Positions 35,149-45,010 of a DNA stretch of 64,000 bases are shown here, piece by piece. Both the position numbers and the translations under genes were made by a program. Source of the DNA: Escherichia phage Baret; the sequence record OR896834.1; one strand, given 5' to 3'. Every line of letters starts with the position of its first letter. Within the stretch, counting starts at the first letter, position 1. The notes below the pieces were generated by a model. It had not been told where the DNA came from. It saw nothing but the letters and a program-made list of their open reading frames with translations, and did no database searches.

Positions 35149-35171
35149 TATCCACGCGTAATATTCGAAGT

Positions 35172-35206: not shown

Positions 35207-35245
35207 TGTATAATGTATTTATACAACTAACTAGGGGATCAAATA

Positions 35246-35764: not shown

Positions 35765-35770
35765 TATAAT
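35742..35770 (+). promoter_or_regulatory. sigma70 promoter (TTGCTA-17-TATAAT) for tRNA transcription unit
   Basis: ttgctatgaagctaaatttctaatataat. Confidence 0.6.
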
Positions 35771-35784
35771 ATATTTATAAATTC

Positions 35785-35873
35785 GGAAGAATAGCATAAC
35801 GGTATTGCAGCAGATTGCTAATCTGTCGGTTTGAAATATAGCCTTGTGGGTTCGATTCCCACTTCTTCCGCCA
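35785..35873 (+). tRNA. tRNA-Ser (anticodon GCU), type II, CCA encoded
   Basis: Acceptor GGAAGAA/TTCTTCC, anticodon arm GCAGA-TTGCTAA-TCTGT, long variable arm, T-arm GTGGG-TTCGATT-CCCAC. Confidence 0.8.
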
Positions 35874-35879
35874 AATTCT

Positions 35880-35957
35880 GGTTCTCAAGCTCATATGGTA
35901 TGAGCACCCGGCTCATAACCGGAAGGTACGTAGGTTCGAATCCTCGGGGAGCCACCA
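35880..35957 (+). tRNA. tRNA with CAU anticodon (Met/Ile2-type), CCA encoded
   Basis: Acceptor GGTTCTC/GGGAGCC, D-arm GCTC...GAGC, anticodon loop CTCATAA; T-stem has mismatches. Confidence 0.5.
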
Positions 35958-35977
35958 ACTTAATTAGGGGATTACAA

Positions 35978-36166
35978 GTGGAATTATACATAGTTTATGT
36001 TGTGTTTATTCAAGATAGAGAATACCCTGATGAATATAAAAAAGGATATAGGTTAGCCAGAGCTACTTCTGAAGCCCAAGCTATGGATAAAGTGGCAGAT
36101 TATATGCTTACAGTAGAAAACGTACACTACATCGACTACCTTGAAGCCTCAAAAGTAATTGACTAA
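35978..36166 (+). CDS. hypothetical protein (62 aa, GTG start)
   Basis: Track ORF trimmed to exclude tRNAs; GTG after AGGGGA. Confidence 0.35.
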   Translation: MELYIVYVVFIQDREYPDEYKKGYRLARATSEAQAMDKVADYMLTVENVHYIDYLEASKVID

Positions 36167-36173
36167 ACTACAC

Positions 36174-36250
36174 GGGGGTGTAATCGAATTGGCATAGGTA
36201 CTGGACTTAAAATTCAGGTTTTGTGGGTTCGAATCCCACCACCCCTACCA
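36174..36250 (+). tRNA. tRNA with UAA anticodon (Leu by anticodon), type I length, CCA encoded
   Basis: Acceptor GGGGGTG/CACCCCT, anticodon arm CTGGA-CTTAAAA-TTCAG, T-arm GTGGG-TTCGAAT-CCCAC; D region GAATTGGCATA lacks a clear stem. Confidence 0.55.
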
Positions 36251-36265
36251 AATTAAGGAAATAAG

Positions 36266-36433
36266 ATGTATAGACACCCACCTCCGCCAACACGTCGTTC
36301 TAGAGAAGTTATCCTCATGGAATTGACTAAAAACTTCAAGGCAACTCTTGAGGATAGAGATTTAGGCACGGATGAAGACATTGATTTTATTTGTAGACTA
36401 TTAAAGATGAAACTGGAGAAACAACATGGCTAA
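36266..36433 (+). CDS. hypothetical micro-protein (55 aa), not in ORF track
   Basis: ATG after AAGGAA RBS; overlaps next ORF start. Confidence 0.35.
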   Translation: MYRHPPPPTRRSREVILMELTKNFKATLEDRDLGTDEDIDFICRLLKMKLEKQHG

Positions 36434-36632
36434 TCCTGAAATTACCATGCAACGATTCATGGCTAAAGGCATGATAGCTGAGGCAGGCATTGAACAAGAA
36501 GTAAAAAGTTATTACGAACAGATTAAGGGTATTGTAGACTCGGCTAAAAACACCGGAGAAAAAGAACATGGTGCGGCAATTATGGCTATAACTCTTATTA
36601 GTCTAGACTTGGCCGAAGAATCTGGAGTTTAG
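36426..36632 (+). CDS. hypothetical protein (68 aa)
   Basis: Track ORF, GGAG RBS. Confidence 0.45.
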   Translation: MANPEITMQRFMAKGMIAEAGIEQEVKSYYEQIKGIVDSAKNTGEKEHGAAIMAITLISLDLAEESGV

Positions 36633-36662
36633 CTCCTCCAAACAGAATTTTTAAAAATGTAC

Positions 36663-36692
36663 TTGCCTTTTGCCTTAAATTTCTGATATAAT
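36663..36692 (+). promoter_or_regulatory. sigma70 promoter (TTGCCT-18-TATAAT)
   Basis: acttgccttttgccttaaatttctgatataat. Confidence 0.6.
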
Positions 36693-36722
36693 AATTATAT
36701 AAATTGATGGAGGAGTTAACGA

Positions 36723-36998
36723 ATGCAAAATCGTGTTGTAGCAACTGGTATTGAAAGTGCAATCTGTAAATCCTGGGAAGGCTGGGAAGGTGAGATTGAA
36801 TGGCTTTATTTCTATGATGTAGAACTTCTACCGGAAGTTAAAGCTAAATGTATTGAAGCTGGCATGGCTCCAGATGCAAAAGCTGATATTGATATTTTAA
36901 TGTCTGAACTTAAAGGTCGTGTAGTTACCGTTAGTAATGAGGGCGAAGAAGTTTTCGAACTTCCATTTTCCTTAACTGTCACTCCTAAGTTCGACTAA
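36723..36998 (+). CDS. hypothetical protein (91 aa)
   Basis: Track ORF, GGAGGAG RBS. Confidence 0.5.
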   Translation: MQNRVVATGIESAICKSWEGWEGEIEWLYFYDVELLPEVKAKCIEAGMAPDAKADIDILMSELKGRVVTVSNEGEEVFELPFSLTVTPKFD

Positions 36999-37006
36999 CT
37001 AATACA

Positions 37007-37045
37007 GCACTGAGCAAGTTCTTTAAAATTTGACTTGCTCAGTGC
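37007..37045. repeat. 12-bp perfect inverted repeat enclosing the -35 of the next promoter
   Basis: GCACTGAGCAAG (37007-18) and CTTGCTCAGTGC (37034-45). Confidence 0.6.
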
Positions 37046-37063
37046 CTTAAAACTTGATATAAT
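37035..37063 (+). promoter_or_regulatory. sigma70 promoter (TTGCTC-17-TATAAT) for tRNA unit
   Basis: ttgctcagtgccttaaaacttgatataat. Confidence 0.6.
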
Positions 37064-37079
37064 AGTTATCTAATTCGGA

Positions 37080-37129
37080 AACATATTTAAAAGTGTTTAA
37101 ACTAGTATTTGAATACTTTTAAATATGTT
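37080..37129. repeat. 15-bp perfect inverted repeat (leader hairpin) abutting tRNA-Tyr 5' end
   Basis: AACATATTTAAAAGT (37080-94) and ACTTTTAAATATGTT (37115-29), 20-nt spacer containing GTTTAAAC. Confidence 0.7.
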
Positions 37130-37217
37130 GGATTAGTATCGTAGAGGTAGCGAAGCAGACTGTAAATCTGCCGACTCGGAAGGGTCTCGGGTGGTTCGAC
37201 TCCATCATCCAACACCA
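37127..37217 (+). tRNA. tRNA-Tyr (anticodon GUA), type II, CCA encoded
   Basis: Acceptor GTTGGAT/ATCCAAC, anticodon arm GCAGA-CTGTAAA-TCTGC, long variable arm, T-arm GGTGG-TTCGACT-CCATC. Confidence 0.8.
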
Positions 37218-37224
37218 AATTTAA

Positions 37225-37301
37225 GTCCTGTTAGACAAACTGGTAAAGTCACTACCCTTTCAAGGTAGGGTTTGCGGGTTCGATCCCCGCACAGGACGCC
37301 A
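37225..37301 (+). tRNA. tRNA-Glu (anticodon UUC), CCA encoded
   Basis: Acceptor GTCCTGT/ACAGGAC, anticodon arm CTACC-CTTTCAA-GGTAG, T-arm GCGGG-TTCGATC-CCCGC. Confidence 0.8.
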
Positions 37302-37310
37302 ATTAATAAT

Positions 37311-37381
37311 TGGGGTACGCATAGGTTGCAAATGGGCCTCCAAAACCCATGAAAAGGTTTCGAATACCTTTACCCCTGCCA
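37311..37381 (+). tRNA. tRNA, probable Trp (anticodon CCA), CCA encoded
   Basis: T-arm AAGGT-TTCGAAT-ACCTT, acceptor TGGGGTA/TACCCCT (1:72 mismatch), anticodon loop CTCCAAA with 4-bp stem. Confidence 0.45.
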
Positions 37382-37387
37382 AAATTT

Positions 37388-37462
37388 GCACCTTTAGCTG
37401 AGATGGATTAGCGCTTGCCTGAAGAGCTTGAGAGGTTCGTTCGATACGAACAGGGTGCACCA
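37388..37462 (+). tRNA. tRNA, possibly Phe (anticodon GAA), CCA encoded
   Basis: Acceptor GCACCTT/AGGGTGC, D-arm GCT...AGC, T-arm GTTCG-TTCGATA-CGAAC; loop CTGAAGA but anticodon stem has U-U mismatches. Confidence 0.45.
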
Positions 37463-37478
37463 AATTGAAGGAGATGCT

Positions 37479-37749
37479 GATGCATCCTGAAAACTTCTTT
37501 ATTTACTGCGCGGATAAGTTGCTGAAACGTAGAATTAACAAAGTCTATCATTATCGTGTTAGTCAACAGCCTTATGTATACGCTTTTGACGGTGATCACA
37601 TTTCATTAGAACAATTATCTTGTGATTACATGATATTGAAGAACTTTGACGAGACGAAGATCTCAAGCGTTCACAATCGACAGAATCCATTAACGTGGAA
37701 ATATAAGAAAAAGAAAGGCATCAAATTCTTAAAAAATGTAGTTGCTTAG
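37479..37749 (+). CDS. hypothetical protein (90 aa)
   Basis: ATG 6 nt after AAGGAG; track start adjusted. Confidence 0.45.
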
Positions 37750-37770
37750 TTTCCAAAAGTTCTGTATAAT
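37742..37770 (+). promoter_or_regulatory. sigma70 promoter (TTGCTT-17-TATAAT)
   Basis: ttgcttagtttccaaaagttctgtataat. Confidence 0.6.
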
Positions 37771-37799
37771 AAATACATAAATTGAACTGGAGAAGCAAC

Positions 37800-38018
37800 A
37801 TGACAGAACAAGAATTGAATGAACGTAAGCTAGTAATGCTTCGCTTACTAAATATTTTCTCTGGTATGGACGGTGGTGGTGATTTCTTAAGACTTAAGGT
37901 ATTTACAGAAACTGCCGAAGGTGATGCAATCTCTAGAGTTATTAGGAACATGGGAAGCCTGCTAGATGTGGCTGGAGTAGCTACTCAATACACCTTAGAT
38001 AATCCTACTGGAGAATAA
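37800..38018 (+). CDS. hypothetical protein (72 aa)
   Basis: ATG after GGAGAAG RBS. Confidence 0.45.
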   Translation: MTEQELNERKLVMLRLLNIFSGMDGGGDFLRLKVFTETAEGDAISRVIRNMGSLLDVAGVATQYTLDNPTGE

Positions 38019-38210
38019 ATGAGAAGATTAGTTAGATTTAAGTGTTGTAGTTCTGAACATATTTTCACACATCTTCGTGAATTTAAAATGTGTGATTGTG
38101 GTAAATCAGGCTATGACTCTGGAAATGGGTTCTACACCCGTACTCTAGGGAACTTCAATGATTTAGAATTTGAAGATCTCGAAAAACAAGATAAACCGAC
38201 CGTTGGCTGA
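38019..38210 (+). CDS. hypothetical Cys-rich micro-protein (63 aa)
   Basis: C-C...C-x-C pattern; start overlaps upstream stop. Confidence 0.4.
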   Translation: MRRLVRFKCCSSEHIFTHLREFKMCDCGKSGYDSGNGFYTRTLGNFNDLEFEDLEKQDKPTVG

Positions 38211-38272
38211 ATGGCTTAGGCGAAGGATTGCAAATCCTTTTTATGTGAGTTCAAATCTCATGCGGTCGTCCA
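38197..38272 (+). tRNA. tRNA-Cys (anticodon GCA), CCA encoded
   Basis: Acceptor CGACCGT/GCGGTCG, anticodon arm AAGGA-TTGCAAA-TCCTT, T-arm GTGAG-TTCAAAT-CTCAT. Confidence 0.75.
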
Positions 38273-38293
38273 AATTACTAAAGGAAAGAAGTA

Positions 38294-38812
38294 GTGCATA
38301 CAAAAGTTTTTGATAGTTTGGTAAAGAAAGGCGTTGTTACTAACGAGCCCTTCTATATAACCGCAGAACTAATCCAGAGATTTATGGAAGAATATATAAA
38401 TCTTTCAGGAACCAATGGTAATACCAAAAAGAATACAAATACTATGTATTCGAGAAAACTTGCTGCACTTTCCTTTATAAAGTTTAAGCAGGAAAATAAA
38501 CTTCCTATTTCTGAAGGTTTTGTATACTGTATTAGTAATCCTGCATGGAAAAATCAGTATAAAATAGGTATGAGTCAAAATCCAAAAGAGAGATTAGCTC
38601 AATATCAGACTTATTCCCCTTATAGGGATTATAAGTTAGAGCATTGGTCTTTTTGGTTTGACAAACGAAAAGGTGAAAAACTAATTCACCAGTATTTCAA
38701 AGATTTAAAAGAACATGAGTGGTTTAGTATAAATTCTAGGGATCTTAGTAAATATCTAGAACGTATTAACTCTAGTTCTGACTTATATGGTTCCTTAGCT
38801 CTAATTGGTTAG
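38294..38812 (+). CDS. T5orf172/GIY-YIG-like domain protein (172 aa, GTG start)
   Basis: GFVYCISNPAWKNQYKIGMSQNPKERLAQYQT matches the T5orf172 (MUG113) signature; 3' end overlaps tRNA-Asn by ~24 nt. Confidence 0.55.
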   Translation: MHTKVFDSLVKKGVVTNEPFYITAELIQRFMEEYINLSGTNGNTKKNTNTMYSRKLAALSFIKFKQENKLPISEGFVYCISNPAWKNQYKIGMSQNPKERLAQYQTYSPYRDYKLEHWSFWFDKRKGEKLIHQYFKDLKEHEWFSINSRDLSKYLERINSSSDLYGSLALIG

Positions 38813-38866
38813 AGCGGCATCTTGTTAAGTTGAGGGTTGCTGGTTCGAATCCAACAGGAACCGCCA
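38789..38866 (+). tRNA. tRNA-Asn (anticodon GUU), CCA encoded
   Basis: Acceptor GGTTCCT/AGGAACC, D-arm GCTC...GAGC, anticodon loop TTGTTAA (stem with mismatches), T-loop TTCGAAT. Confidence 0.6.
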
Positions 38867-38968
38867 AATTCTGTGTAGAGTTAAGTAAACCGGTAGCCAA
38901 CCAGCTATCATTGCTGACATCGAATTCAGCCATAGATACCATTTTCGTTAATAACTGAGGAAACAAGC

Positions 38969-39154
38969 ATGTCCAAGAATGTAATTGCGCAGCTAGAAGT
39001 TCATCGTGATAGCACTATCAACAATATTGAAGTTGAGAAGAAATACATAGAAGAACTTAAACATGATATACTGGTAAGTCTCAACCGTCTTAATGTACGA
39101 AAAGAGTTTCTTAAAGAACTTAATGCAGCTATTGAAAAACTCAAAGCTGAGTAA
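38969..39154 (+). CDS. hypothetical coiled-coil micro-protein (61 aa)
   Basis: Track ORF. Confidence 0.4.
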   Translation: MSKNVIAQLEVHRDSTINNIEVEKKYIEELKHDILVSLNRLNVRKEFLKELNAAIEKLKAE

Positions 39155-39163
39155 ATGAATTAT

Positions 39164-39240
39164 GCGACCGGGGCTGGCTTGGTAATGGTACTCCCCTGTC
39201 ACGGGAGAGAATGTGGGTTCAAATCCCATCGGTCGCGCCA
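39164..39240 (+). tRNA. tRNA-Asp (anticodon GUC), CCA encoded
   Basis: Acceptor GCGACCG/CGGTCGC, anticodon arm CTCCC-CTGTCAC-GGGAG, T-arm GTGGG-TTCAAAT-CCCAT. Confidence 0.8.
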
Positions 39241-39257
39241 AATAAGGTAGGTTAGCT

Positions 39258-39416
39258 ATGGAACGTAGGGAGTTTACTCCAGAAGAGATAGAGCAGATAA
39301 AAGAATCTGCTATGAAAAATGCTAGAATATCTCTGTCACTGGAAGGTATCATTATTAGTGATGTAAACTTTGAAAAAATCAAAGCCATAGCTGATGAACT
39401 GGAAAAAGTAATTTAA
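39258..39416 (+). CDS. VbhA/FicA-antitoxin-like micro-protein (52 aa), not in ORF track
   Basis: AAGGTAGG RBS; sequence NARISLSLEG contains the (S/T)xxxE(G/N) inhibitory motif of Fic antitoxins. Confidence 0.45.
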   Translation: MERREFTPEEIEQIKESAMKNARISLSLEGIIISDVNFEKIKAIADELEKVI

Positions 39417-39417
39417 T

Positions 39418-39493
39418 ACATCCATAGCTCAATGGTTAGAGCTACCGCCTCTTAAGCGGAGGGTTCTAGGTTCAAGTCCTAGTGGGTGTACCA
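39418..39493 (+). tRNA. tRNA-Lys (anticodon CUU), CCA encoded
   Basis: Acceptor ACATCCA/TGGGTGT, D-arm GCTC...GAGC, anticodon loop CTCTTAA, T-arm CTAGG-TTCAAGT-CCTAG. Confidence 0.75.
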
Positions 39494-39519
39494 AATTAAA
39501 CTAGCACGAGAAATATGCT

Positions 39520-39867
39520 ATGATTAATGCTAAAGAAGAATTGTTACTTGCCCTAAAGAATACTAATTCTGAAGTTAAGTGTATTAAGATAGAATTCGGT
39601 TATTATGGGGATAAAGAAGTTTGGGTATTACCCGTAGGTTATACAGAAAAAGATATTGAAGATTTTCTAGATAATCTAGACTTTAAATATGATTCTGGTT
39701 TCGGCGGACAATTGCTTTATGGTAACGTATGGTTTACCGATGGAACTTGGTTAGAACGTGGTGAATATGATGGTTCTGAATGGTGGGAATATAAGACTAC
39801 ACCAGCAATCCCAGAAGAATGCCGAACAATTAATGGTGAAGTAGATCGTACTTTACTATTAAATTAA
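39520..39867 (+). CDS. hypothetical protein (115 aa)
   Basis: Track ORF. Confidence 0.5.
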   Translation: MINAKEELLLALKNTNSEVKCIKIEFGYYGDKEVWVLPVGYTEKDIEDFLDNLDFKYDSGFGGQLLYGNVWFTDGTWLERGEYDGSEWWEYKTTPAIPEECRTINGEVDRTLLLN

Positions 39868-39869
39868 CA

Positions 39870-40250
39870 AAATTTCAGTGCAGAACACGGAGCTAGCAAT
39901 TCGGAAGTGCTGACTCATGATAAGCTGCCTATGTACTTGCGAAGCGGTCGTGTCCAAGACTCGGACTCTTGCACTGAAAACAATCAAACATTCTAGCGTG
40001 GTTGATGGGGAAACCAGCTTGGCGAGGGCAGAAGCTCGTTCGATTCGAGTGAAAGAATGGTTCTCGTAAGTCCGCACAAGTGATAACAGGTTCGAGTCCT
40101 GTCTAGAATGACACTATAAAGTTTACTTATTATGTAGGTTCCGATAGACCGGCGGGTCTATTCTGGCATTTAAGAGAGGTCTCGCAAACTTCTTTGTCAG
40201 CCGTGGGGTTGGTAGCCTCCAGGTGGCCTACACAATAAGTAAATTTATTA
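39870..40250 (+). other. ORF-free structured region with tRNA-like modules
   Basis: T-arm-like hairpins CTCG-TTCGATT-CGAG and ACAGG-TTCGAGT-CCTGT; 7-nt pairing ATTCTAG (39990-96) with CTAGAAT (40103-09) spanning ~120 nt. Confidence 0.3.
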
Positions 40251-40259
40251 AAAATTCAT

Positions 40260-40288
40260 TTGCTATTCTGCTTTATTATCTGTATAAT
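40260..40288 (+). promoter_or_regulatory. sigma70 promoter (TTGCTA-17-TATAAT)
   Basis: aaaaattcatttgctattctgctttattatctgtataat. Confidence 0.65.
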
Positions 40289-40320
40289 ATATTTTATAAA
40301 GTGAAGAGAAGGAAAGCAAA

Positions 40321-40479
40321 ATGAAACACAAGATAGCTCAAGTTTTTATGGCATTATGGTGTATACCAATAGCTATAACAGCATTTAATCTAGATACTTT
40401 TACTATAGAAGAAAAATGTATCGGATTAGTTAGCGGTTTTAGTATGCTGGGCTTATCTTTGCTGTGGTTAAAGAAATAA
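40321..40479 (+). CDS. small hydrophobic membrane protein (52 aa), not in ORF track
   Basis: ATG after GAGAAGGAAAG RBS; two predicted TM segments. Confidence 0.45.
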   Translation: MKHKIAQVFMALWCIPIAITAFNLDTFTIEEKCIGLVSGFSMLGLSLLWLKK

Positions 40480-40483
40480 TATT

Positions 40484-40561
40484 CTCCGTGTAGCTCAGTT
40501 TGGCCAGAGCGTTTCGTTTGGGGCGATAGGGTCGGGGGTTCAAATCCTCCCACGGAGACCA
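40484..40561 (+). tRNA. tRNA-Pro (anticodon UGG), CCA encoded
   Basis: Acceptor CTCCGTG/CACGGAG, D-arm GCTC-AGTTTGGCCA-GAGC, anticodon loop TTTGGGG, T-loop TTCAAAT. Confidence 0.7.
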
Positions 40562-40567
40562 AACAAT

Positions 40568-40645
40568 TGCGGGTTAGATCTCTGGTAGAGATCGCTAGTC
40601 TCATAAGCTAGAAAGAGGTAGGTTCGATTCCTGCACCCGCTTCCA
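40568..40645 (+). tRNA. tRNA-Met (anticodon CAU; could be initiator or Ile2), CCA encoded
   Basis: Acceptor TGCGGGT/ACCCGCT (1:72 mismatch), D-arm GATC...GATC, anticodon arm CTAGT-CTCATAA-GCTAG. Confidence 0.7.
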
Positions 40646-40665
40646 CTTTAATAGAGGATTTCGAA

Positions 40666-40833
40666 ATGAAAGTATTTCGATTAGTAGTAAGTGACAAACG
40701 TTTAGGTAAGAATACCTCAAAATCCTTACTTGCTCATTATGGAAAAGATGAGAAAGAAGTAATGGCGGAGTTTGGGATTAATCACCCTTACTTGAAAGTT
40801 CACTCTATTAAAGAAGTATATAATGGTTACTAA
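40666..40833 (+). CDS. hypothetical micro-protein (55 aa), not in ORF track
   Basis: ATG 8 nt after AGAGGA RBS. Confidence 0.4.
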   Translation: MKVFRLVVSDKRLGKNTSKSLLAHYGKDEKEVMAEFGINHPYLKVHSIKEVYNGY

Positions 40834-40834
40834 T

Positions 40835-40913
40835 AGATCGCTAGCTCAATAGGTTTAGTAGCATCCGACTTTTAATCGGAAGGTTCTGGGTTCGAGTCCC
40901 AGGCGATCTACCA
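40835..40913 (+). tRNA. tRNA-Lys (anticodon UUU), CCA encoded
   Basis: Acceptor AGATCGC/GCGATCT, anticodon arm TCCGA-CTTTTAA-TCGGA, T-arm CTGGG-TTCGAGT-CCCAG. Confidence 0.8.
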
Positions 40914-40931
40914 ATTTCAAGAAAAACGCAG

Positions 40932-40960
40932 TTGCTTGATGCTTAATTTCTTGTTATAAT
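40932..40960 (+). promoter_or_regulatory. sigma70 promoter (TTGCTT-17-TATAAT) for RNA-only unit
   Basis: ttgcttgatgcttaatttcttgttataat. Confidence 0.65.
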
Positions 40961-40972
40961 ATTTATATAAAT

Positions 40973-40994
40973 TGATGAGGATTTCTCCTCATCA
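40973..40994. repeat. perfect 9-bp hairpin at transcript 5' end
   Basis: TGATGAGGA-tttc-TCCTCATCA; the 5' arm is the conserved leader box that elsewhere provides the RBS. Confidence 0.6.
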
Positions 40995-41198
40995 TAGTTC
41001 ACTAAGGTATTAGCTCGACCTAGGACTGGCTGCCAAAAAGCACGATCCCTACGATTCGGGAGGAGTTCTAGATTAGTCCACTAGATTCAGCGGCAACTGA
41101 ATAGTGTATTGGGTTTGCGAGATGACGCGGTTCCTTCCGCTCGAAGCGAAGGTGCTGTAGTTACGCCGAGCTAATAGCCTTAGTAAACTAAAGAATTT

Positions 41199-41277
41199 GG
41201 GGGATGGGTCTGCTAGGGGTGGACACCTCGCTTGCACCGAGGACATCAGAACGATTCGAATTCGTTATCCTCCACCA
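41199..41277 (+). tRNA. tRNA-Ala (anticodon UGC), CCA encoded
   Basis: Acceptor GGGGGAT/ATCCTCC, anticodon arm CCTCG-CTTGCAC-CGAGG, T-arm AACGA-TTCGAAT-TCGTT. Confidence 0.8.
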
Positions 41278-41282
41278 AATAC

Positions 41283-41359
41283 GCGTGATTGATGGAATTG
41301 GCATACATACCGTCCTTAGAAGTCGGGTTTTGAGGGTTCGAATCCCTTGTCACGCACCA
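41283..41359 (+). tRNA. tRNA with UAG anticodon (Leu by anticodon), type I length, CCA encoded
   Basis: Acceptor GCGTGAT/GTCACGC, anticodon loop CTTAGAA, T-arm GAGGG-TTCGAAT-CCCTT; D region GAATTGGCATA shared with tRNA at 36174. Confidence 0.55.
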
Positions 41360-41484
41360 AATTTGATGGTCAGAGTAAATTAAACCTACTATCTCGGTTG
41401 AGCTGTTTTAATGGGTTCGAATCCCAGCGAGGCGTAACTGCCTGGTGTGATAGAGGCATCATTCCACTAACATTGGAAAAACTA

Positions 41485-41715
41485 ATGAAACGAAAATTAA
41501 AAAAGTCTTATATAATTAAGATAAATAAGCTACGAAGTAGGGCAAAAGGATGGCCACTTCGAATATTAATTGCGGATAACCATACTAGATACCATGCGGA
41601 ACAACGTCATTACAAACAGTGGGAGTCATACTGCCGCTCAAAAGCAGGTCGTTTAGATGGATCTTATGAGTTTCTATTTGGTAAGAAGCCTACTAGAGTA
41701 GCTTTAGGTAATTAA
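41485..41715 (+). CDS. hypothetical basic micro-protein (76 aa)
   Basis: Track ORF trimmed to ATG at 41485; upstream part of track ORF overlaps a tRNA-like T-arm. Confidence 0.35.
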   Translation: MKRKLKKSYIIKINKLRSRAKGWPLRILIADNHTRYHAEQRHYKQWESYCRSKAGRLDGSYEFLFGKKPTRVALGN

Positions 41716-41720
41716 TACTT

Positions 41721-41811
41721 GGAAGAGCAAATCGAATTGGCGACGAAAACCGCTTGGAAAGTGGCTGACTGGTAAAACGGCTTGAGAGTTCAAATCTCTC
41801 CTCTTCCGCCA
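41721..41811 (+). tRNA. tRNA-Ser (anticodon GGA), type II, CCA encoded
   Basis: Acceptor GGAAGAG/CTCTTCC, D-stem TCG/CGA, anticodon loop TTGGAAA, long variable arm, T-arm GAGAG-TTCAAAT-CTCTC. Confidence 0.65.
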
Positions 41812-41823
41812 AACAATTTATAT

Positions 41824-41918
41824 GGTAGGTCAATCCAACGGCTGGCGCTGGACTCCGACTTGAAATCGGTTGATCGTAGTGATACGGTGTAAGGGTTCGA
41901 TCCCCTTACCTACCTCCA
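41824..41918 (+). tRNA. tRNA-Ser (anticodon UGA), type II, CCA encoded
   Basis: Acceptor GGTAGGT/ACCTACC, anticodon loop CTTGAAA, long variable arm, T-arm AAGGG-TTCGATC-CCCTT. Confidence 0.7.
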
Positions 41919-41923
41919 AATCT

Positions 41924-42054
41924 TGGAATATGCCGGAATTGGTAGACGGGACTGCCGAATAGGTTTACTAGGAACATCCACTCCTAGAAATATACCTTAA
42001 AAGCGGTTGAGTTAAATGGTCTAACTCATGAAGGTTCAAGCCCTTCTATTCCTT
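41924..42054 (+). other. oversized tRNA-like element (~131 nt; alternative 85-nt fold from 41970)
   Basis: T-arm GAAGG-TTCAAGC-CCTTC; 3' TATTCCT pairs with TGGAATA (41924) or AGGAACA (41970); D-like GCCGGAATTGGTAGACGG; 7-bp internal hairpin TGAGTTA/TAACTCA; no CCA. Confidence 0.3.
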
Positions 42055-42283
42055 GATACATCAATGGCTCAAAGTGTAACGGTGCTATTTGATGCTCTTG
42101 GAAAGACTTTCCCGACATGCGTTCGGGGGTAAGCTTCTGAGGCTAGAATAGAAGAGTTTCTGAGAGCCGCCACAATTGAAAATTCGTACTCGTCTTGAGC
42201 TGCGTGCAATAGGAGATAACTTGATTAGTATTCTAGAACATGCTAATTGAGGATGGTTTCGCTAACCCTGCGAGTTTTCAATT

Positions 42284-42357
42284 GTGGCTATATCATAATT
42301 GGTTAATGATCCTGATTGTGAATCAGGCCTATGTGGATTCGAATTCCACTAGCCACC
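42284..42357 (+). tRNA. tRNA-His (anticodon GUG)
   Basis: Acceptor GTGGCTA/TAGCCAC, D-arm TCAT...ATGA, anticodon arm CCTGA-TTGTGAA-TCAGG, T-arm GTGGA-TTCGAAT-TCCAC. Confidence 0.75.
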
Positions 42358-42386
42358 CCCAAATTAACTTAAATAGGAAATAAAAT

Positions 42387-42581
42387 ATGGCTGATTTCTG
42401 CAAACAATGCTCCATTGATATGTGGGGCAGAGATACTGGTGATCTTTCTGGGCTGATTACAGAAGCCGAAGTCAAAGAAGGTTATGGTGCAGTTGTGGTT
42501 TGTGAAGGATGCGGAGTCATTCGAGTAGATCATGAGGGTAAGCGCCTTGAAGAATCTGAGCCAGTTACCCTATTTCCCTAA
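42387..42581 (+). CDS. zinc-ribbon micro-protein (64 aa)
   Basis: CKQC...CEGC pattern; AGGAAA RBS. Confidence 0.45.
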   Translation: MADFCKQCSIDMWGRDTGDLSGLITEAEVKEGYGAVVVCEGCGVIRVDHEGKRLEESEPVTLFP

Positions 42582-42594
42582 AGTAAAGAATTAT

Positions 42595-42670
42595 TGGGAT
42601 GTAGATCAATTGGCAGATCGTCGGCCTCTGACTCCGAAGGTTCCACGTTCGATCCGTGGCATCCCAGCCA
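42595..42670 (+). tRNA. tRNA-Gln (anticodon CUG), CCA encoded
   Basis: Acceptor TGGGATG/CATCCCA, D-arm GATC...GATC, anticodon loop CTCTGAC, T-arm CCACG-TTCGATC-CGTGG. Confidence 0.75.
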
Positions 42671-42676
42671 AATACT

Positions 42677-42752
42677 TGGAGAGTAGTGTAACGGTTAGCA
42701 CAACGGCCTTTGACTCCGTTAATGGTAGGTTCGATTCCTCCTTCTCCAGCCA
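42677..42752 (+). tRNA. tRNA-Gln (anticodon UUG), CCA encoded
   Basis: Acceptor TGGAGAG/TTCTCCA, anticodon loop CTTTGAC, T-loop TTCGATT. Confidence 0.7.
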
Positions 42753-42759
42753 AATTAAT

Positions 42760-42834
42760 GCGTGATTAGTTCAGTGGCTAGAATAACTGGCTTCCAACCA
42801 GTAGACACGAGTTCGACTCTCGTATCCCGCACCA
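42760..42834 (+). tRNA. tRNA-Gly (anticodon UCC), CCA encoded
   Basis: Acceptor GCGTGAT/ATCCCGC, anticodon arm ACTGG-CTTCCAA-CCAGT, T-arm ACGAG-TTCGACT-CTCGT. Confidence 0.75.
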
Positions 42835-42848
42835 AATAAGGAAACACT

Positions 42849-43100
42849 ATGCACGTTTTTGAGTTTCGTAATAAAAGTACTGATAAGCGAGTTATCATTA
42901 TTGGAGAAACATATCGAGCATATGAACAAACTGATGGCTCTGTTATCTTGAATGATGAGAAAGGAGGTTTTAGCTTTTATCCAGAAGAACCTTATGAAGA
43001 GTTTCGAAAACAATTTAACCTAGACTGGAGAAAGCATTTAAACACTGTTGCTTCATCTGTAGTATTGCCAACTACCAGTACTGTACTCTCTAATGGCTGA
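42849..43100 (+). CDS. hypothetical protein (83 aa)
   Basis: Track ORF, AAGGAAA RBS. Confidence 0.45.
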   Translation: MHVFEFRNKSTDKRVIIIGETYRAYEQTDGSVILNDEKGGFSFYPEEPYEEFRKQFNLDWRKHLNTVASSVVLPTTSTVLSNG

Positions 43101-43257
43101 CAACCTAAAAGTAAAGATTGATAAACAAAAGAAACGTGTAGAAGTAGAGATTGGTGAAGAACGTGTTGCCTTTACTTTTGAATTTCTACAGCAAATGGCA
43201 ATGGCAGTTATGACTGATAAGTCTCCTGTTATTGAAAAAGAAATCCCGTTGAAATAA
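43093..43257 (+). CDS. hypothetical micro-protein (54 aa), not in ORF track
   Basis: ATG overlapping upstream stop (ATGGCTGA). Confidence 0.35.
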   Translation: MADNLKVKIDKQKKRVEVEIGEERVAFTFEFLQQMAMAVMTDKSPVIEKEIPLK

Positions 43258-43267
43258 CGGGATCATC

Positions 43268-43342
43268 GCTCCTAAAGCATTGCTGGCGATGCAGTTGCCT
43301 TGTAAGCATCTGAACCGGGTTCGATTCCTGGTGGGAGCACCA
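43268..43342 (+). tRNA. tRNA-Thr (anticodon UGU), CCA encoded
   Basis: Acceptor GCTCCTA/TGGGAGC, D-arm GCAT...ATGC, anticodon loop CTTGTAA, T-arm CCGGG-TTCGATT-CCTGG. Confidence 0.7.
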
Positions 43343-43357
43343 AATTTAAAAATTCAT

Positions 43358-43386
43358 TTGCCTTCTCTCTTATTTATTGTTATAAT
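43358..43386 (+). promoter_or_regulatory. sigma70 promoter (TTGCCT-17-TATAAT)
   Basis: aaaaattcatttgccttctctcttatttattgttataat. Confidence 0.65.
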
Positions 43387-43416
43387 ATTCATATAAATTA
43401 ATGAGAGGGAAACCAA

Positions 43417-43707
43417 ATGAAACGTTATCTTTCTATTGTATTCCAAACTGGTGGTCAAAGATATACCTATGAATTTCCATCTTCTTGGAAAATCAAAGAA
43501 GGTGATCAAGTAGTAGTGTTAACACCGCGTGAAGGGTATAAAGTAGTAATGGTTAAACAAGTATTCCCAAAAGATCATGAACCAGCTAAAGGCATTCGCT
43601 ATAAGATGATTCATGGTGTGGTCCGTCAAGTACCACGAACTGAGGTAGAAGTAGATAAGACTGGAGAAACTAAATTCCATTATACTTCTTACTTAGATAG
43701 TGTGTGA
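43417..43707 (+). CDS. hypothetical protein (96 aa)
   Basis: Track ORF, GAGAGGG RBS. Confidence 0.5.
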   Translation: MKRYLSIVFQTGGQRYTYEFPSSWKIKEGDQVVVLTPREGYKVVMVKQVFPKDHEPAKGIRYKMIHGVVRQVPRTEVEVDKTGETKFHYTSYLDSV

Positions 43708-43722
43708 TGTAAATATTCTAAT

Positions 43723-43799
43723 ACTTCGGTAGCTTAGCGATCTAAAGCACCCGGCTGATAACCGAGAGATCGGGGGTTTAAATCCCTCCCGGAGTACCA
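43723..43799 (+). tRNA. tRNA-Ile (anticodon GAU), CCA encoded
   Basis: Acceptor ACTTCGG/CCGGAGT, D-arm GCTT...AAGC, anticodon loop CTGATAA, T-arm GGGGG-TTTAAAT-CCCTC. Confidence 0.7.
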
Positions 43800-43895
43800 A
43801 ATTTAGGAATTAAGACTATGCGTCCAGGAAAGTTTAAAAAAGCTAATTGGTCTAAAGAGTATAAAGAATACTTACTTAGTCTAGTAAAACATAAC

Positions 43896-43971
43896 AGTTA
43901 GTTGGCAGAGTGGTTATGCACCTCCTTCATACGGAGCGACTACAGTGGTTCAAATCCACTACTAACTACCA
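43896..43971 (+). tRNA. tRNA with CAU anticodon (third CAU tRNA; Met/fMet/Ile2), CCA encoded
   Basis: Acceptor AGTTAGT/ACTAACT, D-arm GCA...TGC, anticodon loop TTCATAC, T-arm AGTGG-TTCAAAT-CCACT. Confidence 0.7.
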
Positions 43972-44008
43972 TTAAAATAGCTAGAGATAGCTAAATTTAG
44001 GAGCAGCT

Positions 44009-44203
44009 ATGTTAACAATTAAAATAATGTCAGCCAAGAATGGTGAACATATCCATACAGGCAAAAGCGTAAGCTTTAATCCTAGAAATAAGAGATTGGC
44101 TATAGTTGGAGTAGATCAAGCCATCTTTTTAAAAGAAGATGAAGTAGCATACGTCATGAACCAAACTGGTAAGACAGTTTCCGTATACTATGGAAAAGTA
44201 TAA
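44009..44203 (+). CDS. hypothetical protein (64 aa)
   Basis: Track ORF, AGGAG RBS. Confidence 0.45.
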   Translation: MLTIKIMSAKNGEHIHTGKSVSFNPRNKRLAIVGVDQAIFLKEDEVAYVMNQTGKTVSVYYGKV

Positions 44204-44245
44204 AGAATAAAGAGCTGAGCCAAATTCTAGCATCGTGGAGATCTA

Positions 44246-44614
44246 ATGAAAGCATATCAAAATCTTAAGTCTGGCGTAATTAATCTTGTTCATGATAATC
44301 AGATTATTCAACTGTACTCTAAAAATGGCGAACTTAAACAAAAAGTTCTGGTTGAGGATCTAGAGGGTATTACACCCCATTTTGACCCCGAGTCCTTTCG
44401 TGAAGTCAAGGTGGAAGTCGCCCCTCAAATTGAAGGTGGTCAGCACCTAAATGTCAATGTGTTAAGTCGTGATCAGCTTTTGGATGCACAGAAACATCCT
44501 GAAAAATACCCTCAATTAACTATCCGTGTTTCAGGGTACGCTGTGCGTTTTAACGCACTGACGCGTGAACAGCAGAACGACGTTATTAGTCGTACATTTA
44601 CTCAGGCGATGTAA
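44246..44614 (+). CDS. grcA: autonomous glycyl-radical cofactor, GrcA/YfiD homologue
   Basis: C-terminus [60 protein letters not shown] is near-identical in pattern to enterobacterial GrcA, including glycyl-radical motif RVSGYAV. Confidence 0.85.
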
Positions 44615-44695
44615 TGGGGCTTGGATACGGTTTCTACGAACTACGTAAGGTAGTCGAGCAAACTCCATTTATCTCCCAAGTTTTAGGAGAAATGT

Positions 44696-45010
44696 GTGGA
44701 TCGAGCATTAAGACGTCATCACCGGCAACGTGTAAAGAACAACCGCAAGAAGTATTGGACAGTCTTCCCACATGAAGAAAGCCCTAAACGGTTAGGTATT
44801 ATCACTACTACTCCTTGTATCTGTTCTTGTTGGATGTGCGGGAATCCTCGCAAATACTTTAAGAATAGTAAAGCAGGGATGAAAACCTCGGAGATTAGGA
44901 AAATGGAAGCAATGATTACGGATATTTCAAATGATGAATTTGATGGCTTTGTAGGATTCGGAGAAGGAATTAGCTCAGGCTGTTTCGAAGATGTACGCCC
45001 CGATTTGTAA
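44696..45010 (+). CDS. hypothetical basic Cys-containing protein (104 aa, GTG start)
   Basis: GTG 6 nt after AGGAG. Confidence 0.45.
   Translation: MDRALRRHHRQRVKNNRKKYWTVFPHEESPKRLGIITTTPCICSCWMCGNPRKYFKNSKAGMKTSEIRKMEAMITDISNDEFDGFVGFGEGISSGCFEDVRPDL

What the first reader, a model, noticed from the sequence alone, without database searches (positions are those of the whole stretch)
39870..42280. Oversized tRNA-like elements and unassigned structured spacers inside the tRNA island
Three intervals (39870-40250, 40980-41198, 41920-42280) contain canonical T-arm hairpins and acceptor-like 7-nt complementarity that enclose 115-131 nt, too long for normal tRNAs. One (41924-42054) also has a D-like GAATTGGTAGA segment and an internal 7-bp hairpin. 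They could be intron-containing or permuted tRNAs, tRNA-derived regulatory RNAs, or pseudogenes; none is explained by the ORF track.
Basis: seen in the sequence. Interest (0 to 1): 0.6.

Follow-up and report, generated by a model that had tools for sequence, protein, structure and literature searches.

The report
Phage T5 tRNA-like stable RNA genes
The three "oversized tRNA-like" stretches are the long-known but functionally unexplained small stable RNA genes of phage T5 (RNA2, RNAIV, RNA2H, RNA1, RNAI, RNAIII), conserved folded RNAs that sit among the phage's tRNA genes, so the finding is real but a rediscovery.

Summary
The window is a T5-like phage (99.9% to Salmonella phage PMBT29). The three intervals map at 95-100% identity onto six misc_RNA features of the T5 GenBank records. 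Two are annotated there as "tRNA-like stable RNA with unknown functions": RNA2 (39989-40113) and RNA1 (41922-42065). Four are "stable RNA with unknown functions": RNAIV (40132-40234), RNA2H (41008-41179), RNAI (42066-42172) and RNAIII (42177-42282).

RNA1 and RNA2 are cloverleaves with acceptor, D and T arms, and a 40-48 nt structured module is inserted between anticodon-loop positions 32 and 33. ARAGORN in intron mode calls them tRNA-Leu(UAA) and tRNA-Arg(CCG). Interval 2 is a 172-nt multi-branched RNA, not a tRNA shape.

Covariation across Demerecviridae strongly supports the folds (11-16 compensatory pairs each; 92-97% of cells paired, against 34-53% when partners are slid). For RNA1 the would-be anticodon is not conserved, while the loop of the inserted hairpin is nearly invariant. 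This argues against a spliced tRNA and against pseudogenes.

No Rfam family matches. The elements occur only in T5-like phages. Their function remains unknown. My best guess, by inference only, is non-decoding tRNA mimics excised by tRNA-processing enzymes that act as decoys within T5's anti-defence island.

The parts
39873..39979 (+). Unannotated stretch closed by a 10-bp helix (TTTCAGTGCA / TGCACTGAAA), directly after the stop codon of ORF 39520-39867 and directly before rna2. It is a possible seventh stable RNA or a processing element.
   Evidence: Coordinates. MFE -32.6 kcal/mol, z -1.4. Found 98-100% identical in T5, BF23, HildyBeyeler, Lindwurm and two IMG/VR contigs only, so there is no variation to test pairing. 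Not annotated in either T5 record.
39989..40113 (+). rna2 (T5 'RNA2', a tRNA-like stable RNA). Parts: acceptor 39990-39996 / 40103-40109; D arm 39999-40016; anticodon stem 40017-40021 / 40077-40081; 48-nt insert 40023-40070 containing a second T-arm-like hairpin (40034-40050, loop TTCGATT); invariant TCCGCAC 40071-40077; T arm 40086-40102; 3' tail G-ACA.
   Evidence: 96.8% identical to T5 rna2. AY543070 note: 'tRNA-like stable RNA with unknown functions'. ARAGORN -i -ps calls tRNA-Arg(ccg) i(34,48). Called as a tRNA at default threshold once the insert is removed. Covariation.
40132..40234 (+). RNAIV: a cloverleaf-shaped four-way junction made of a closing stem and three hairpins. The middle arm ends in an invariant 7-nt loop CTCGCAA (40181-40187). 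There are no canonical D or T loops. The 3' end is ...CCTAC-ACA.
   Evidence: 97.1% identical to T5 RNAIV. Annotated 'stable RNA with unknown functions'. 96.8% of cells paired against 41-53% when slid; 11 of 36 pairs changed on both sides; 0 of 500 shuffles.
40260..40288 (+). Promoter equivalent to T5 P13a (TTGCTA, 17-nt spacer, TATAAT). It marks the start of the next operon, so rna2 and RNAIV lie at the 3' end of the preceding transcription unit.
   Evidence: Promoter scan, 10 of 12 matches. T5 P13a maps to 40241-40315 at 89% identity.
40932..40994 (+). Promoter equivalent to T5 P13b (TTGCTT 40932-40937; TATAAT 40955-40960), followed by a 9-bp hairpin (40973-40994). RNA2H is the first gene of this transcript.
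   Evidence: T5 P13b maps to 40913-40996 at 89% identity. Hexamer and hairpin coordinates. Hairpin also seen.
41008..41179 (+). RNA2H: a 172-nt multi-branched RNA closed by a 10-bp helix (41008-41017 / 41167-41176), with 3' tail GCC, lying 19 nt upstream of tRNA-Ala.
   Evidence: 98.3% identical to T5 RNA2H. Annotated 'stable RNA with unknown functions'. 99.2% of cells paired against 33-42% when slid; 9 of 49 pairs compensatory. Epseptimaviruses carry a 23-25 nt hairpin extension, which is not a multiple of three. Klebsiella homologues sit in the same place before tRNA-Ala, and I read their closing helix as covarying from the sequences.
41922..42065 (+). RNA1 (tRNA-like stable RNA). Parts: acceptor 41925-41930 / 42047-42052; U8 at 41931; Leu-type D arm 41933-41949; anticodon stem 41951-41955 / 42003-42007; 40-nt insert (41957-41996 in ARAGORN's parse) whose hairpin 41968-41987 has the loop ACATCCAC; long variable arm 42008-42028; T arm 42030-42046; no encoded CCA (3' TTGATAC...).
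   Evidence: 95.1% identical to T5 RNA1. Note 'tRNA-like stable RNA with unknown functions'. ARAGORN -i calls tRNA-Leu(taa) i(33,40). Covariation on 19 distinct sequences. Present in Markadamsvirinae, Sugarlandvirus and Mccorquodalevirinae.
42066..42172 (+). RNAI: a 107-nt irregular extended hairpin with a 5-bp terminal helix (GGCTC / GAGCC) and a single-stranded 3' G-CCA.
   Evidence: 98.1% identical to T5 RNAI. The 5' 20 nt and 3' 22 nt are conserved, while the interior diverges to about 65% but keeps the apical hairpin. The terminal helix covaries (GGCUC/GAGCC, GGCCC/GGGCC, GGGCC/GGCUC), and NCCA is present in all 11 homologues listed from Tequinta-, Epseptima-, Sugarland- and Hongcheonvirus.
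42173..42282 (+). RNAIII: a stem-loop RNA closed by a 12-bp helix (42175-42186 / 42271-42282). Its 3' end abuts G-1 of tRNA-His, so it is in effect the structured 5' leader released when RNase P matures tRNA-His.
   Evidence: 100% identical to T5 RNAIII (42177-42282). MFE z -3.4. Only five distinct sequences and no compensatory change, so the fold is untested. Absent from several epseptimaviruses.
42283..42359 (+). tRNA-His(GUG) including G-1. It is the downstream neighbour that defines the 3' end of RNAIII.
   Evidence: ARAGORN 42284-42359. Rfam tRNA 59.9 bits. T5 tRNAH maps from 42283.

Best explanation
Identity (shown, about 0.95). The three intervals are the genes of the phage T5 small stable RNAs: RNA2 and RNAIV; RNA2H; and RNA1, RNAI and RNAIII.

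Structure (shown). These are independently folding RNAs whose shapes are conserved across T5-like phages. RNA1 and RNA2 are true tRNA scaffolds with acceptor, D and T arms and the elbow nucleotides G18G19 / U54U55C56 (RNA1 also has an invariant U8). A structured 40-48 nt module is inserted between anticodon-loop positions 32 and 33. RNAIV is cloverleaf-shaped. RNAI is a long hairpin ending in NCCA. RNA2H is multi-branched.

Biogenesis (inferred, about 0.7). They lie on the tRNA strand with no terminator between genes, so they are probably co-transcribed with the tRNAs from early promoters (P13a and P13b equivalents). They would then be cut out by the host tRNA-processing enzymes: RNase P at the 5' ends of RNA1, RNA2, RNAI and of the downstream tRNAs, with exonucleolytic trimming back to the terminal helix or CCA.

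Function (inferred, about 0.3). They do not decode. They would act in trans as abundant tRNA mimics that occupy tRNA-binding proteins, most plausibly the tRNA-targeting nucleases of bacterial defence systems, or alternatively host tRNA-processing or modification enzymes. The inserted module would remove the cleavable 7-nt anticodon loop while keeping the elbow and acceptor that such proteins dock on.
For: Identity: 95-100% matches of all six T5 misc_RNAs to the three intervals, with the same gene order. AY543070 notes read 'tRNA-like stable RNA with unknown functions' and 'stable RNA with unknown functions'.

Structure: covariation for RNA1, rna2, RNAIV, and RNA2H and RNAI. Insert-free RNA1 and rna2 are called as tRNAs by default ARAGORN.

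Non-decoding: the RNA1 'anticodon' segment has five different versions, while the insert loop is the same in 18 of 19 sequences. rna2 has G32 and C37. No Rfam tRNA hit at E<=1 falls in any of the three intervals.

Co-transcription: T5 promoters P13a and P13b map between the blocks, and the only + strand terminator-like matches in 38800-43500 are internal hairpins of RNA1 and RNAIII. RNAIII ends exactly at G-1 of tRNA-His, RNA1 abuts RNAI, and RNAI ends in NCCA in all 11 homologues listed.

Trans-acting cassettes rather than position-bound signals: in Klebsiella phages RNA1, RNAI, rna2 and RNA2H lie at separate places in the tRNA array, and BF23 has a tRNA-Gly between rna2 and RNAIV.

Anti-defence context: the T5 tRNA-rich region is a deletable 'anti-defence island'. 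Its tRNA-Lys and tRNA-Tyr neutralise PARIS and retron/PtuAB, and deletions in it let T5 escape DRT9 (PMC11464382; bioRxiv 10.1101/2023.03.15.532788; PMC12483538).
Against: No experiment or paper available to me assigns any function, and the T5 depositors wrote 'unknown functions'. Nothing in the sequence ties any of these RNAs to a particular defence nuclease.

RNAIV, RNA2H, RNAI and RNAIII lack the tRNA elbow, so 'tRNA mimic' fits only RNA1 and rna2 well.

The positions of RNA2H (first in its operon) and of rna2 and RNAIV (last in theirs) in this phage also fit a transcript-end stabiliser role.

Expression in this particular phage is inferred from T5, not shown. The region is dispensable in the laboratory (from my knowledge of Glukhov et al. 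2018, cited in PMC12483538). That fits an accessory role but proves nothing.
Confidence: 0.45

Rival explanations
1. They are processing and stability 'punctuation'. On this view the structured RNAs exist mainly in cis. They would give the polycistronic tRNA-and-small-ORF transcripts protected 5' and 3' ends and defined RNase P or RNase E cleavage points, and the released pieces would be stable by-products with no function of their own.
For: RNA2H is the first element after promoter P13b. rna2 and RNAIV are the last before P13a. RNAIII is literally the 5' leader of tRNA-His, and RNA1's 3' trailer is the 5' leader of RNAI. Small ORFs are interleaved with tRNAs throughout the island. RNAIII is dispensable in several epseptimaviruses.
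Against: Loops and single-stranded stretches are invariant or nearly so across subfamilies: ACAUCCAC and AAAUGGUCU in RNA1, UUCGAUU and UCCGCAC in rna2, CUCGCAA in RNAIV, and the 5' and 3' ends of RNAI. Simple protective hairpins would not need this. The elements change position in the array between genera while keeping their sequence. RNA1 and rna2 keep full tRNA tertiary-contact nucleotides.
Confidence: 0.25
2. They are riboregulators. Here the invariant loops base-pair with host or phage RNAs (mRNA, rRNA or tRNA) to regulate translation or stability, and the tRNA-like body serves only as a stable, RNase P-processed scaffold.
For: Invariant or near-invariant 7-9 nt loops are presented on covarying stems. 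The RNAIV loop CUCGCAA is exactly complementary to UUGCGAG in RNA2H at 41115.
Against: Complement searches in the tRNA island found only 6-8 nt matches, which I consider no more than chance would give (my judgement; one search made no chance estimate). The RNAIV-RNA2H match degrades to 6 of 7 with a G-U pair in epseptimaviruses, where the RNAIV loop is unchanged. No host target could be tested with these tools.
Confidence: 0.12
3. They are intron-containing tRNA genes. On this view the 40-48 nt inserts are removed, and RNA1 and rna2 mature into decoding tRNA-Leu(UAA) and tRNA-Arg(CCG).
For: ARAGORN in intron mode calls both, and calls the insert-free sequences as tRNAs at default threshold. 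Both inserts sit at the same site (32/33). rna2 keeps an invariant U-CCG-CA next to a covarying anticodon stem, two Klebsiella homologues encode a 3' CCA, and the window has no other tRNA-Arg(CCG).
Against: The RNA1 'anticodon' is not conserved (UAA, CAU-like, GAA-like and others) on an unchanged Leu-type body. If spliced, it would insert Leu at unrelated codons. The inserts hold invariant or near-invariant loops and covarying stems, so they are selected, unlike spacer introns. At 40-48 nt they are far below group I intron size (my knowledge), and no Rfam intron or ribozyme hit was found. No bulge-helix-bulge motif is present by my inspection, and enterobacteria lack the splicing endonuclease (my knowledge). 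rna2 would have G32 and C37. The window already has a tRNA-Leu(UAA) at 36174-36250. T5 workers listed these as 125- and 144-nt stable RNAs, which is the unspliced size.
Confidence: 0.05
4. They are decaying tRNA pseudogenes or scars of mobile-element insertion, carried along without function.
For: The island is a hotspot of homing endonucleases, deletions and tRNA turnover (PMC12483538). A truncated tRNA remnant lies at about 41385-41440. RNA1 lacks an encoded CCA, unlike the tRNAs I read in 38500-43500.
Against: Compensatory substitutions maintain every helix. The RNAs are retained in about 500 phage genomes across three Demerecviridae lineages. Loops are invariant or nearly so.
Confidence: 0.03

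Closest known systems
Phage T5 stable RNAs RNA1, RNA2, RNAI, RNAIII, RNAIV and RNA2H (misc_RNA features of GenBank AY543070 and AY692264)
   Same: The same genes: 95-100% nucleotide identity, the same order relative to tRNA-Asp/ORF, promoters P13a and P13b, tRNA-Ala, tRNA-Ser and tRNA-His, and the same lengths.
   Different: Only strain-level substitutions, several of them compensatory (for example the RNA1 variable arm GAGTTA/TAACTC against GAGATA/TATCTC). Neighbouring genes differ: there is no tRNA-Val after tRNA-Lys(UUU) and no hegC HNH endonuclease gene in the window.
Phage T4 species 1 and species 2 RNAs (rnaC, rnaD)
   Same: They are small stable RNAs (139 and 119 nt) at the end of a phage tRNA cluster, annotated only as 'small, stable RNA'. 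rnaC has a canonical T arm and a terminal helix, so it is likewise an oversized tRNA-like RNA.
   Different: No detectable sequence homology: nhmmer --max at E<=10 found no hit for any of the seven profiles. The folds and the phage family (Straboviridae) are different.
Canonical and phage-encoded tRNAs (Rfam RF00005)
   Same: RNA1 and rna2 share the acceptor, D and T arms, G18G19 and the T-loop U54U55C56...A58 (RNA1 also U8). They share the genomic context and probably RNase P processing. Without the insert they score as tRNAs.
   Different: The 7-nt anticodon loop is interrupted by a 40-48 nt structured module. RNA1 has no conserved anticodon. The window's RNA1 and rna2 encode no CCA. No Rfam tRNA hit at E<=1 falls in these intervals.
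Non-decoding tRNA mimics elsewhere (bacterial Y-RNA-like YrlA, plant-virus 3' tRNA-like structures, mammalian mascRNA); comparison from my own knowledge
   Same: A tRNA elbow and acceptor geometry reused to recruit tRNA-processing or tRNA-binding proteins without decoding. Processing by RNase P.
   Different: No sequence or covariance-model match, including to Rfam's Y-RNA families. YrlA has its ends in a Ro-binding helix rather than an open acceptor. The viral structures are 3' ends of genomes, not excised small RNAs.

Membership tests
T5 stable RNA genes (RNA1, RNA2, RNAI, RNAIII, RNAIV, RNA2H) | Sequence homology to the annotated T5 misc_RNA features over their full length | tested here: met
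   All six align end to end at 95.1-100% identity.
T5 stable RNA genes (RNA1, RNA2, RNAI, RNAIII, RNAIV, RNA2H) | Same position in the tRNA island relative to flanking tRNAs and promoters P13a and P13b | tested here: met
   Gene order of the window matches AY692264 and AY543070.
T5 stable RNA genes (RNA1, RNA2, RNAI, RNAIII, RNAIV, RNA2H) | Accumulation as discrete stable RNA species in infected cells | not testable with these tools
   This rests on the depositors' annotation 'stable RNA'. No expression data were available for this phage.
Canonical tRNA (Rfam RF00005) | Covariance-model score at or above the gathering threshold | tested here: not met
   No tRNA hit at E<=1 inside 39870-40250, 40980-41198 or 41920-42280, while about 25 flanking tRNAs score 32-65 bits.
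Canonical tRNA (Rfam RF00005) | Cloverleaf with conserved tertiary-contact nucleotides (U8, G18G19, T-loop UUC..A) | tested here: met
   Met fully for RNA1. rna2 has C at position 8 but meets the rest (alignments; pair counts). Not met for RNAIV, RNA2H, RNAI and RNAIII.
Canonical tRNA (Rfam RF00005) | 7-nt anticodon loop with a conserved anticodon | tested here: not met
   The loop is interrupted by 40-48 nt. The RNA1 anticodon segment varies between lineages. rna2 has an invariant UCCGCA but with G32 and C37.
Intron-containing tRNA (group I intron or archaeal-type bulge-helix-bulge intron) | Insert with group I intron architecture, or a bulge-helix-bulge motif at the exon-intron junctions | tested here: not met
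   The inserts are 40 and 48 nt. No Rfam intron or ribozyme hit at E<=1. By my inspection, the junctions form symmetric internal loops rather than two 3-nt bulges separated by 4 bp (structure).
Intron-containing tRNA (group I intron or archaeal-type bulge-helix-bulge intron) | Exons more conserved than the intron, with the anticodon preserved after removal | tested here: not met
   RNA1: 23 of 48 insert columns are invariant, the hairpin loop is the same in 18 of 19 sequences, and the anticodon segment has five versions. For rna2 the result is inconclusive, because the half-loop is invariant.
Permuted tRNA | 3' half encoded upstream of the 5' half | tested here: not met
   The arms are collinear in the normal order in both RNA1 and rna2.
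tmRNA | tRNA-like domain plus a tag reading frame, detected by ARAGORN or Rfam | tested here: not met
   No tmRNA in default ARAGORN. The only hits are a 15-nt Rfam fragment at 41412-41426 (E 0.58) and spurious low-threshold permuted calls.
T4 rnaC / rnaD | Sequence homology | tested here: not met
   nhmmer --max with profiles of all seven elements gave no hit at E<=10.

The most novel reading that the evidence does not exclude
RNA1 and RNA2, and perhaps RNAI with its universal NCCA end, may be dedicated RNA anti-defence factors. They would be abundant, uncleavable tRNA decoys that titrate or jam tRNA-targeting immune nucleases or CCA-end-modifying toxins. This would extend the known 'phage tRNAs replace cleaved host tRNAs' strategy to a 'phage tRNA mimics inhibit the nuclease' strategy.
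Probability: 0.2. Interest if true: 0.75.

Novelty: already known. Interest (0 to 1): 0.35.

Why it matters
The existence of these RNAs is not new. T5 workers annotated them two decades ago as stable or tRNA-like RNAs of unknown function.

What remains open is what they do. That question has become more testable now that the T5 tRNA island is recognised as an anti-defence island and tRNA cleavage as a widespread immune mechanism.

The comparison here adds four points that I did not find stated in the records or in the papers I could search:
- The folds are backed by covariation.
- RNA1, RNAI, rna2 and RNA2H are conserved beyond Tequintavirus, into Sugarlandvirus, and RNA1 and RNAI also into Mccorquodalevirinae.
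- The RNA1 insert, not its 'anticodon', is the conserved part.
- RNAI carries NCCA in every homologue I listed.

In practice these genes are unannotated, or overlaid by spurious 'hypothetical protein' ORFs, in nearly all modern T5-like genome records I looked at, and they have no Rfam family. Covariance models built from these alignments would fix a recurrent annotation gap.

Tried and rejected
- **Rfam.** A permissive scan (E<=1) of 33000-45000 found no family in any of the three intervals. No ribozyme, intron, Y RNA, 6S or SRP family matched.
- **Unspecific pattern scan.** An IMG/VR scan with a loosely specified RNA1 pattern returned mostly chance hits, and I discarded all but the T5-like contigs. 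A stricter pattern gave 25 contigs, all 95-121 kb except one 14.5-kb fragment. The eight I examined carry T5-like RNA1.
- **Bacterial genomes.** A scan of 185,579 species representatives with an RNA1 motif gave 0 hits, so there are no prophage or host copies.
- **Literature.** Nothing in the held library discusses the T5 stable RNAs. The Wang et al. 2005 T5 genome paper is not held.
- **T4 homology.** No homology to T4 rnaC or rnaD.
- **Loop complementarity.** Only 6-8 nt matches inside the tRNA island, which I rejected as evidence.
- **Protein-coding reading.** Rejected. The overlapping ORFs are 30-72 aa on either strand. Indels are not multiples of three (7 nt in RNAI, 23-25 nt in RNA2H). 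Substitutions follow base-pairing rather than codon position.
- **MFE z-scores.** Weak on their own (-1.4 to -3.4), so I did not rely on them.
- **16S rRNA recollection.** I recalled that ACAUCCAC also occurs in E. coli 16S rRNA. I could not verify this with the tools and do not use it.

Full report
**What the window is.** BLAST of 39500-42600 against GenBank phages gives 99.9% identity over 100% of the query to Salmonella phage PMBT29, Salmonella phage EH4 and Escherichia phage vB_Eco_mar004NP2, with hundreds of other T5-like phages behind them. The finding lies in the + strand tRNA island. ARAGORN finds 22 tRNAs between 34.1 and 44.0 kb, and Rfam adds a few more.

**What is at the three intervals.** The two annotated T5 genome records carry misc_RNA features in exactly the syntenic gaps. 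Mapped by BLAST onto the window they are:
- rna2, 39989-40113 (96.8%)
- RNAIV, 40132-40234 (97.1%)
- RNA2H, 41008-41179 (98.3%)
- RNA1, 41922-42065 (95.1%)
- RNAI, 42066-42172 (98.1%)
- RNAIII, 42177-42282 (100%)

AY543070 labels RNA1 and RNA2 'tRNA-like stable RNA with unknown functions' and the other four 'stable RNA with unknown functions'.

One further stretch, 39873-39979, is closed by a 10-bp helix. It is conserved in tequintaviruses but is not annotated in T5.

**Checking the observation.**
- Interval 3 is as described. It has a 6-bp acceptor helix, U8, a Leu-type D arm, a 7-bp hairpin in the variable-arm position and a canonical T arm, spanning 41925-42052.
- Interval 1 holds an equivalent element at 39990-40109.
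At a lowered threshold it calls 39990-40110 tRNA-Arg(ccg) with a 48-nt insert at the same site.
- With the inserts deleted in silico, both are called as tRNAs at default settings.
- Interval 2 does not fit the description. RNA2H is a 172-nt multi-branched RNA closed by a 10-bp helix and has no canonical T loop.
- Rfam finds no family in any of the three intervals, even at E<=1.

**Are the folds real?** MFE z-scores are only -1.4 to -3.4, so I relied on comparison. I collected homologues from T5, BF23, other tequintaviruses, epseptimaviruses, Klebsiella sugarlandviruses, Pectobacterium phage DU_PP_V (Mccorquodalevirinae) and IMG/VR contigs.

| RNA | Sequences | Cells paired | Paired when partners slid | Pairs changed on both sides | Shuffles reaching the score |
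|---|---|---|---|---|---|
| RNA1 | 19 distinct | 91.6% | 37-50% | 16 of 38 | 0 of 500 |
| rna2 (four tRNA helices) | 11 | 97.4% | 33-46% | 12 of 21 | 0 of 500 |
| RNAIV | 13 | 96.8% | 41-53% | 11 of 36 | 0 of 500 |
| RNA2H | 17 | 99.2% | 33-42% | 9 of 49 | not run |

- **RNA1.** The tested fold is a cloverleaf with an extended anticodon arm.
- **rna2.** After realignment the inner T-arm-like hairpin also covaries (GCUCG/CGAGU against UACGG/CCGUA).
- **RNA2H.** Reading the Klebsiella sequences, the closing helix also covaries (UAUUAGCUCG/CGAGCUAAUA against AAUUAAUCUG/CGGAUUAAUU).
- **RNAI.** It keeps its 5' 20 nt and 3' 22 nt while the interior diverges to about 65% and still preserves an apical hairpin. 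Its terminal helix covaries, and all 11 homologues listed from four genera end in NCCA.
- **RNAIII and the 39873-39979 element.** They are too conserved to test, with no compensatory change.

**Spliced tRNAs, pseudogenes or something else?**
- For RNA1 the six bases that would carry the anticodon come in five versions (TAAAA-, CATAAA, GAAAAC, TAAAAA, GACGG-), all on an unchanged Leu-type body.
- By contrast, the loop of the inserted hairpin, ACATCCAC, is the same in 18 of 19 sequences (ATATCCAC in one Klebsiella phage). The variable-arm loop is invariant. This is the reverse of what an intron would show.
- The inserts are 40-48 nt, far below group I intron size, and they match no Rfam ribozyme or intron. 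By my inspection they lack bulge-helix-bulge geometry.
- For rna2 the half-loop UCCGCAC is invariant and two Klebsiella copies encode CCA. I therefore cannot exclude a decoding or chargeable role from sequence alone. However, G32 and C37 are atypical, and the T5 annotators list it as a 125-nt species.
- Pseudogenes are excluded by the compensatory changes.
- Coding is excluded by indel lengths and by the substitution pattern.

**Distribution.**
- RNA1 matches about 500 GenBank phage records. The organism names are T5-like phages of enterobacteria, and every record I fetched is Demerecviridae.
- The RNA1 motif gives 0 hits in 185,579 bacterial species genomes. It is found in 25 IMG/VR contigs, all 95-121 kb except one 14.5-kb fragment, and the eight I examined carry T5-like RNA1.
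- Profile searches find RNAI and RNA2H in Klebsiella phages in the same local contexts: RNA2H before tRNA-Ala, and RNAI upstream of tRNA-His. RNAI lies next to RNA1 in the Pectobacterium phage.
- In Klebsiella phages RNA1, RNAI and rna2 are scattered through the array, and BF23 has a tRNA-Gly between rna2 and RNAIV. The elements therefore behave like independent tRNA-type cassettes.

**Biogenesis (inferred).**
- T5 promoters P13a and P13b map to 40241-40315 and 40913-40996 (hexamers).
- The only + strand terminator-like matches in 38800-43500 are internal hairpins of RNA1 and RNAIII.
- rna2 and RNAIV therefore end one operon, and RNA2H begins the next.
- RNA1, RNAI and RNAIII lie head to tail immediately upstream of tRNA-His. 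RNAIII ends at G-1 of tRNA-His, and RNAI ends in GCCA.
- This layout fits excision by RNase P and tRNA 3'-end trimming. That fit rests on established knowledge of tRNA and 4.5S RNA processing in E. coli and was not tested here.

**Function (inferred, weak).**
- The T5 tRNA-rich region is deletable and acts as an anti-defence island (bioRxiv 10.1101/2023.03.15.532788).
- Its tRNA-Lys neutralises PARIS (PMC11464382). Its tRNA-Tyr counters retron/PtuAB (same bioRxiv preprint). Deletions in it let T5 escape DRT9 (PMC12483538).
- RNA1 and rna2 keep the elbow and acceptor that tRNA-binding proteins recognise, but they replace the cleavable anticodon loop.
- I therefore favour non-decoding tRNA mimics acting as decoys or sponges, at about 0.3.
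- The main rival is a cis role as processing or stability punctuation, at about 0.25. Base-pairing riboregulation, splicing into real tRNAs and neutral decay follow behind.

**Comparison with known systems.** They are members of the T5 stable-RNA set by homology and synteny. The closest analogue is T4 rnaC and rnaD, small stable RNAs at the end of the T4 tRNA cluster. rnaC likewise has a T arm, but there is no homology. They are not canonical tRNAs, intron-containing tRNAs, permuted tRNAs or tmRNA by the tests listed in the membership table.

**Verdict.** The feature is real, and two of the three intervals were correctly recognised as tRNA-like. It is already known. Interest is moderate to low as a discovery, but it points at a functional question that has stayed open for decades and is now testable.

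Noticed in passing
window 41721-41811 and 41824-41918: Default ARAGORN missed two class II tRNA-Ser genes (GGA and UGA). Rfam scores the second as tRNA-Sec-like (38.3 bits, below gathering), and ARAGORN finds both only at -ps80. They align partially (79-84%) to T5 tRNA-Ser2 and tRNA-Ser1.
   Followed up: partly
window 41385-41440: This looks like a truncated tRNA remnant (T arm TGGGTTCGAATCCCA; Rfam tmRNA 3'-end fragment at 41412-41426, E 0.58). It sits between tRNA-Leu(UAG) and the next ORF, at the place where T5 carries the HNH endonuclease gene hegC (F-TflI).
   Followed up: partly
window 38869-38941: This is the homologue (98.6%) of T5 'RNA3', annotated in AY543070 as 'putative tRNA-like RNA'. 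It lies just after tRNA-Asn, ends in ACCA and is outside the finding's coordinates.
   Followed up: partly
window 41283-41359 and 36174-36250: Both tRNA-Leu genes (UAG and UAA) are only 77 nt, with a 5-nt variable region instead of the long variable arm usual for bacterial tRNA-Leu. T5's tRNA-Leu1 is 85 nt with a long arm. The only Leu-type long-arm body in this part of the window is the non-decoding RNA1.
   Followed up: no
window 33518-33589 and 35880-35954: Rfam tRNA hits (35.5 and 40.3 bits, above gathering) that default ARAGORN did not report.
   Followed up: no
window 40973-40994: A 9-bp hairpin (TGATGAGGA TTTC TCCTCATCA) lies 13 nt downstream of the -10 box of the P13b-like promoter, presumably near the 5' end of the RNA2H-tRNA-Ala transcript. 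The scan scores its reverse complement as a minus-strand terminator.
   Followed up: no
L002 (phage BF23) 1188-1261; window 40114-40131: BF23 carries a tRNA-Gly(GCC) plus about 150 further bases between rna2 and RNAIV, where the window has an 18-nt spacer. The stable-RNA genes and tRNA genes appear to be shuffled as similar cassettes.
   Followed up: partly
L012 (Klebsiella phage KpGranit) 4785-4993 and 5131-5419: Unannotated gaps of about 210 and 290 nt flank the RNA1 homologue in sugarlandviruses. They may hold further structured RNAs that have no counterpart in T5.
   Followed up: no
GenBank records under: In nearly all modern T5-like genome records I looked at, these intervals are unannotated or carry short 'hypothetical protein' ORFs laid over the RNA genes (for example Stitch CPT_Stitch60 and GreteKellenberger bas26_0126).
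   Followed up: partly
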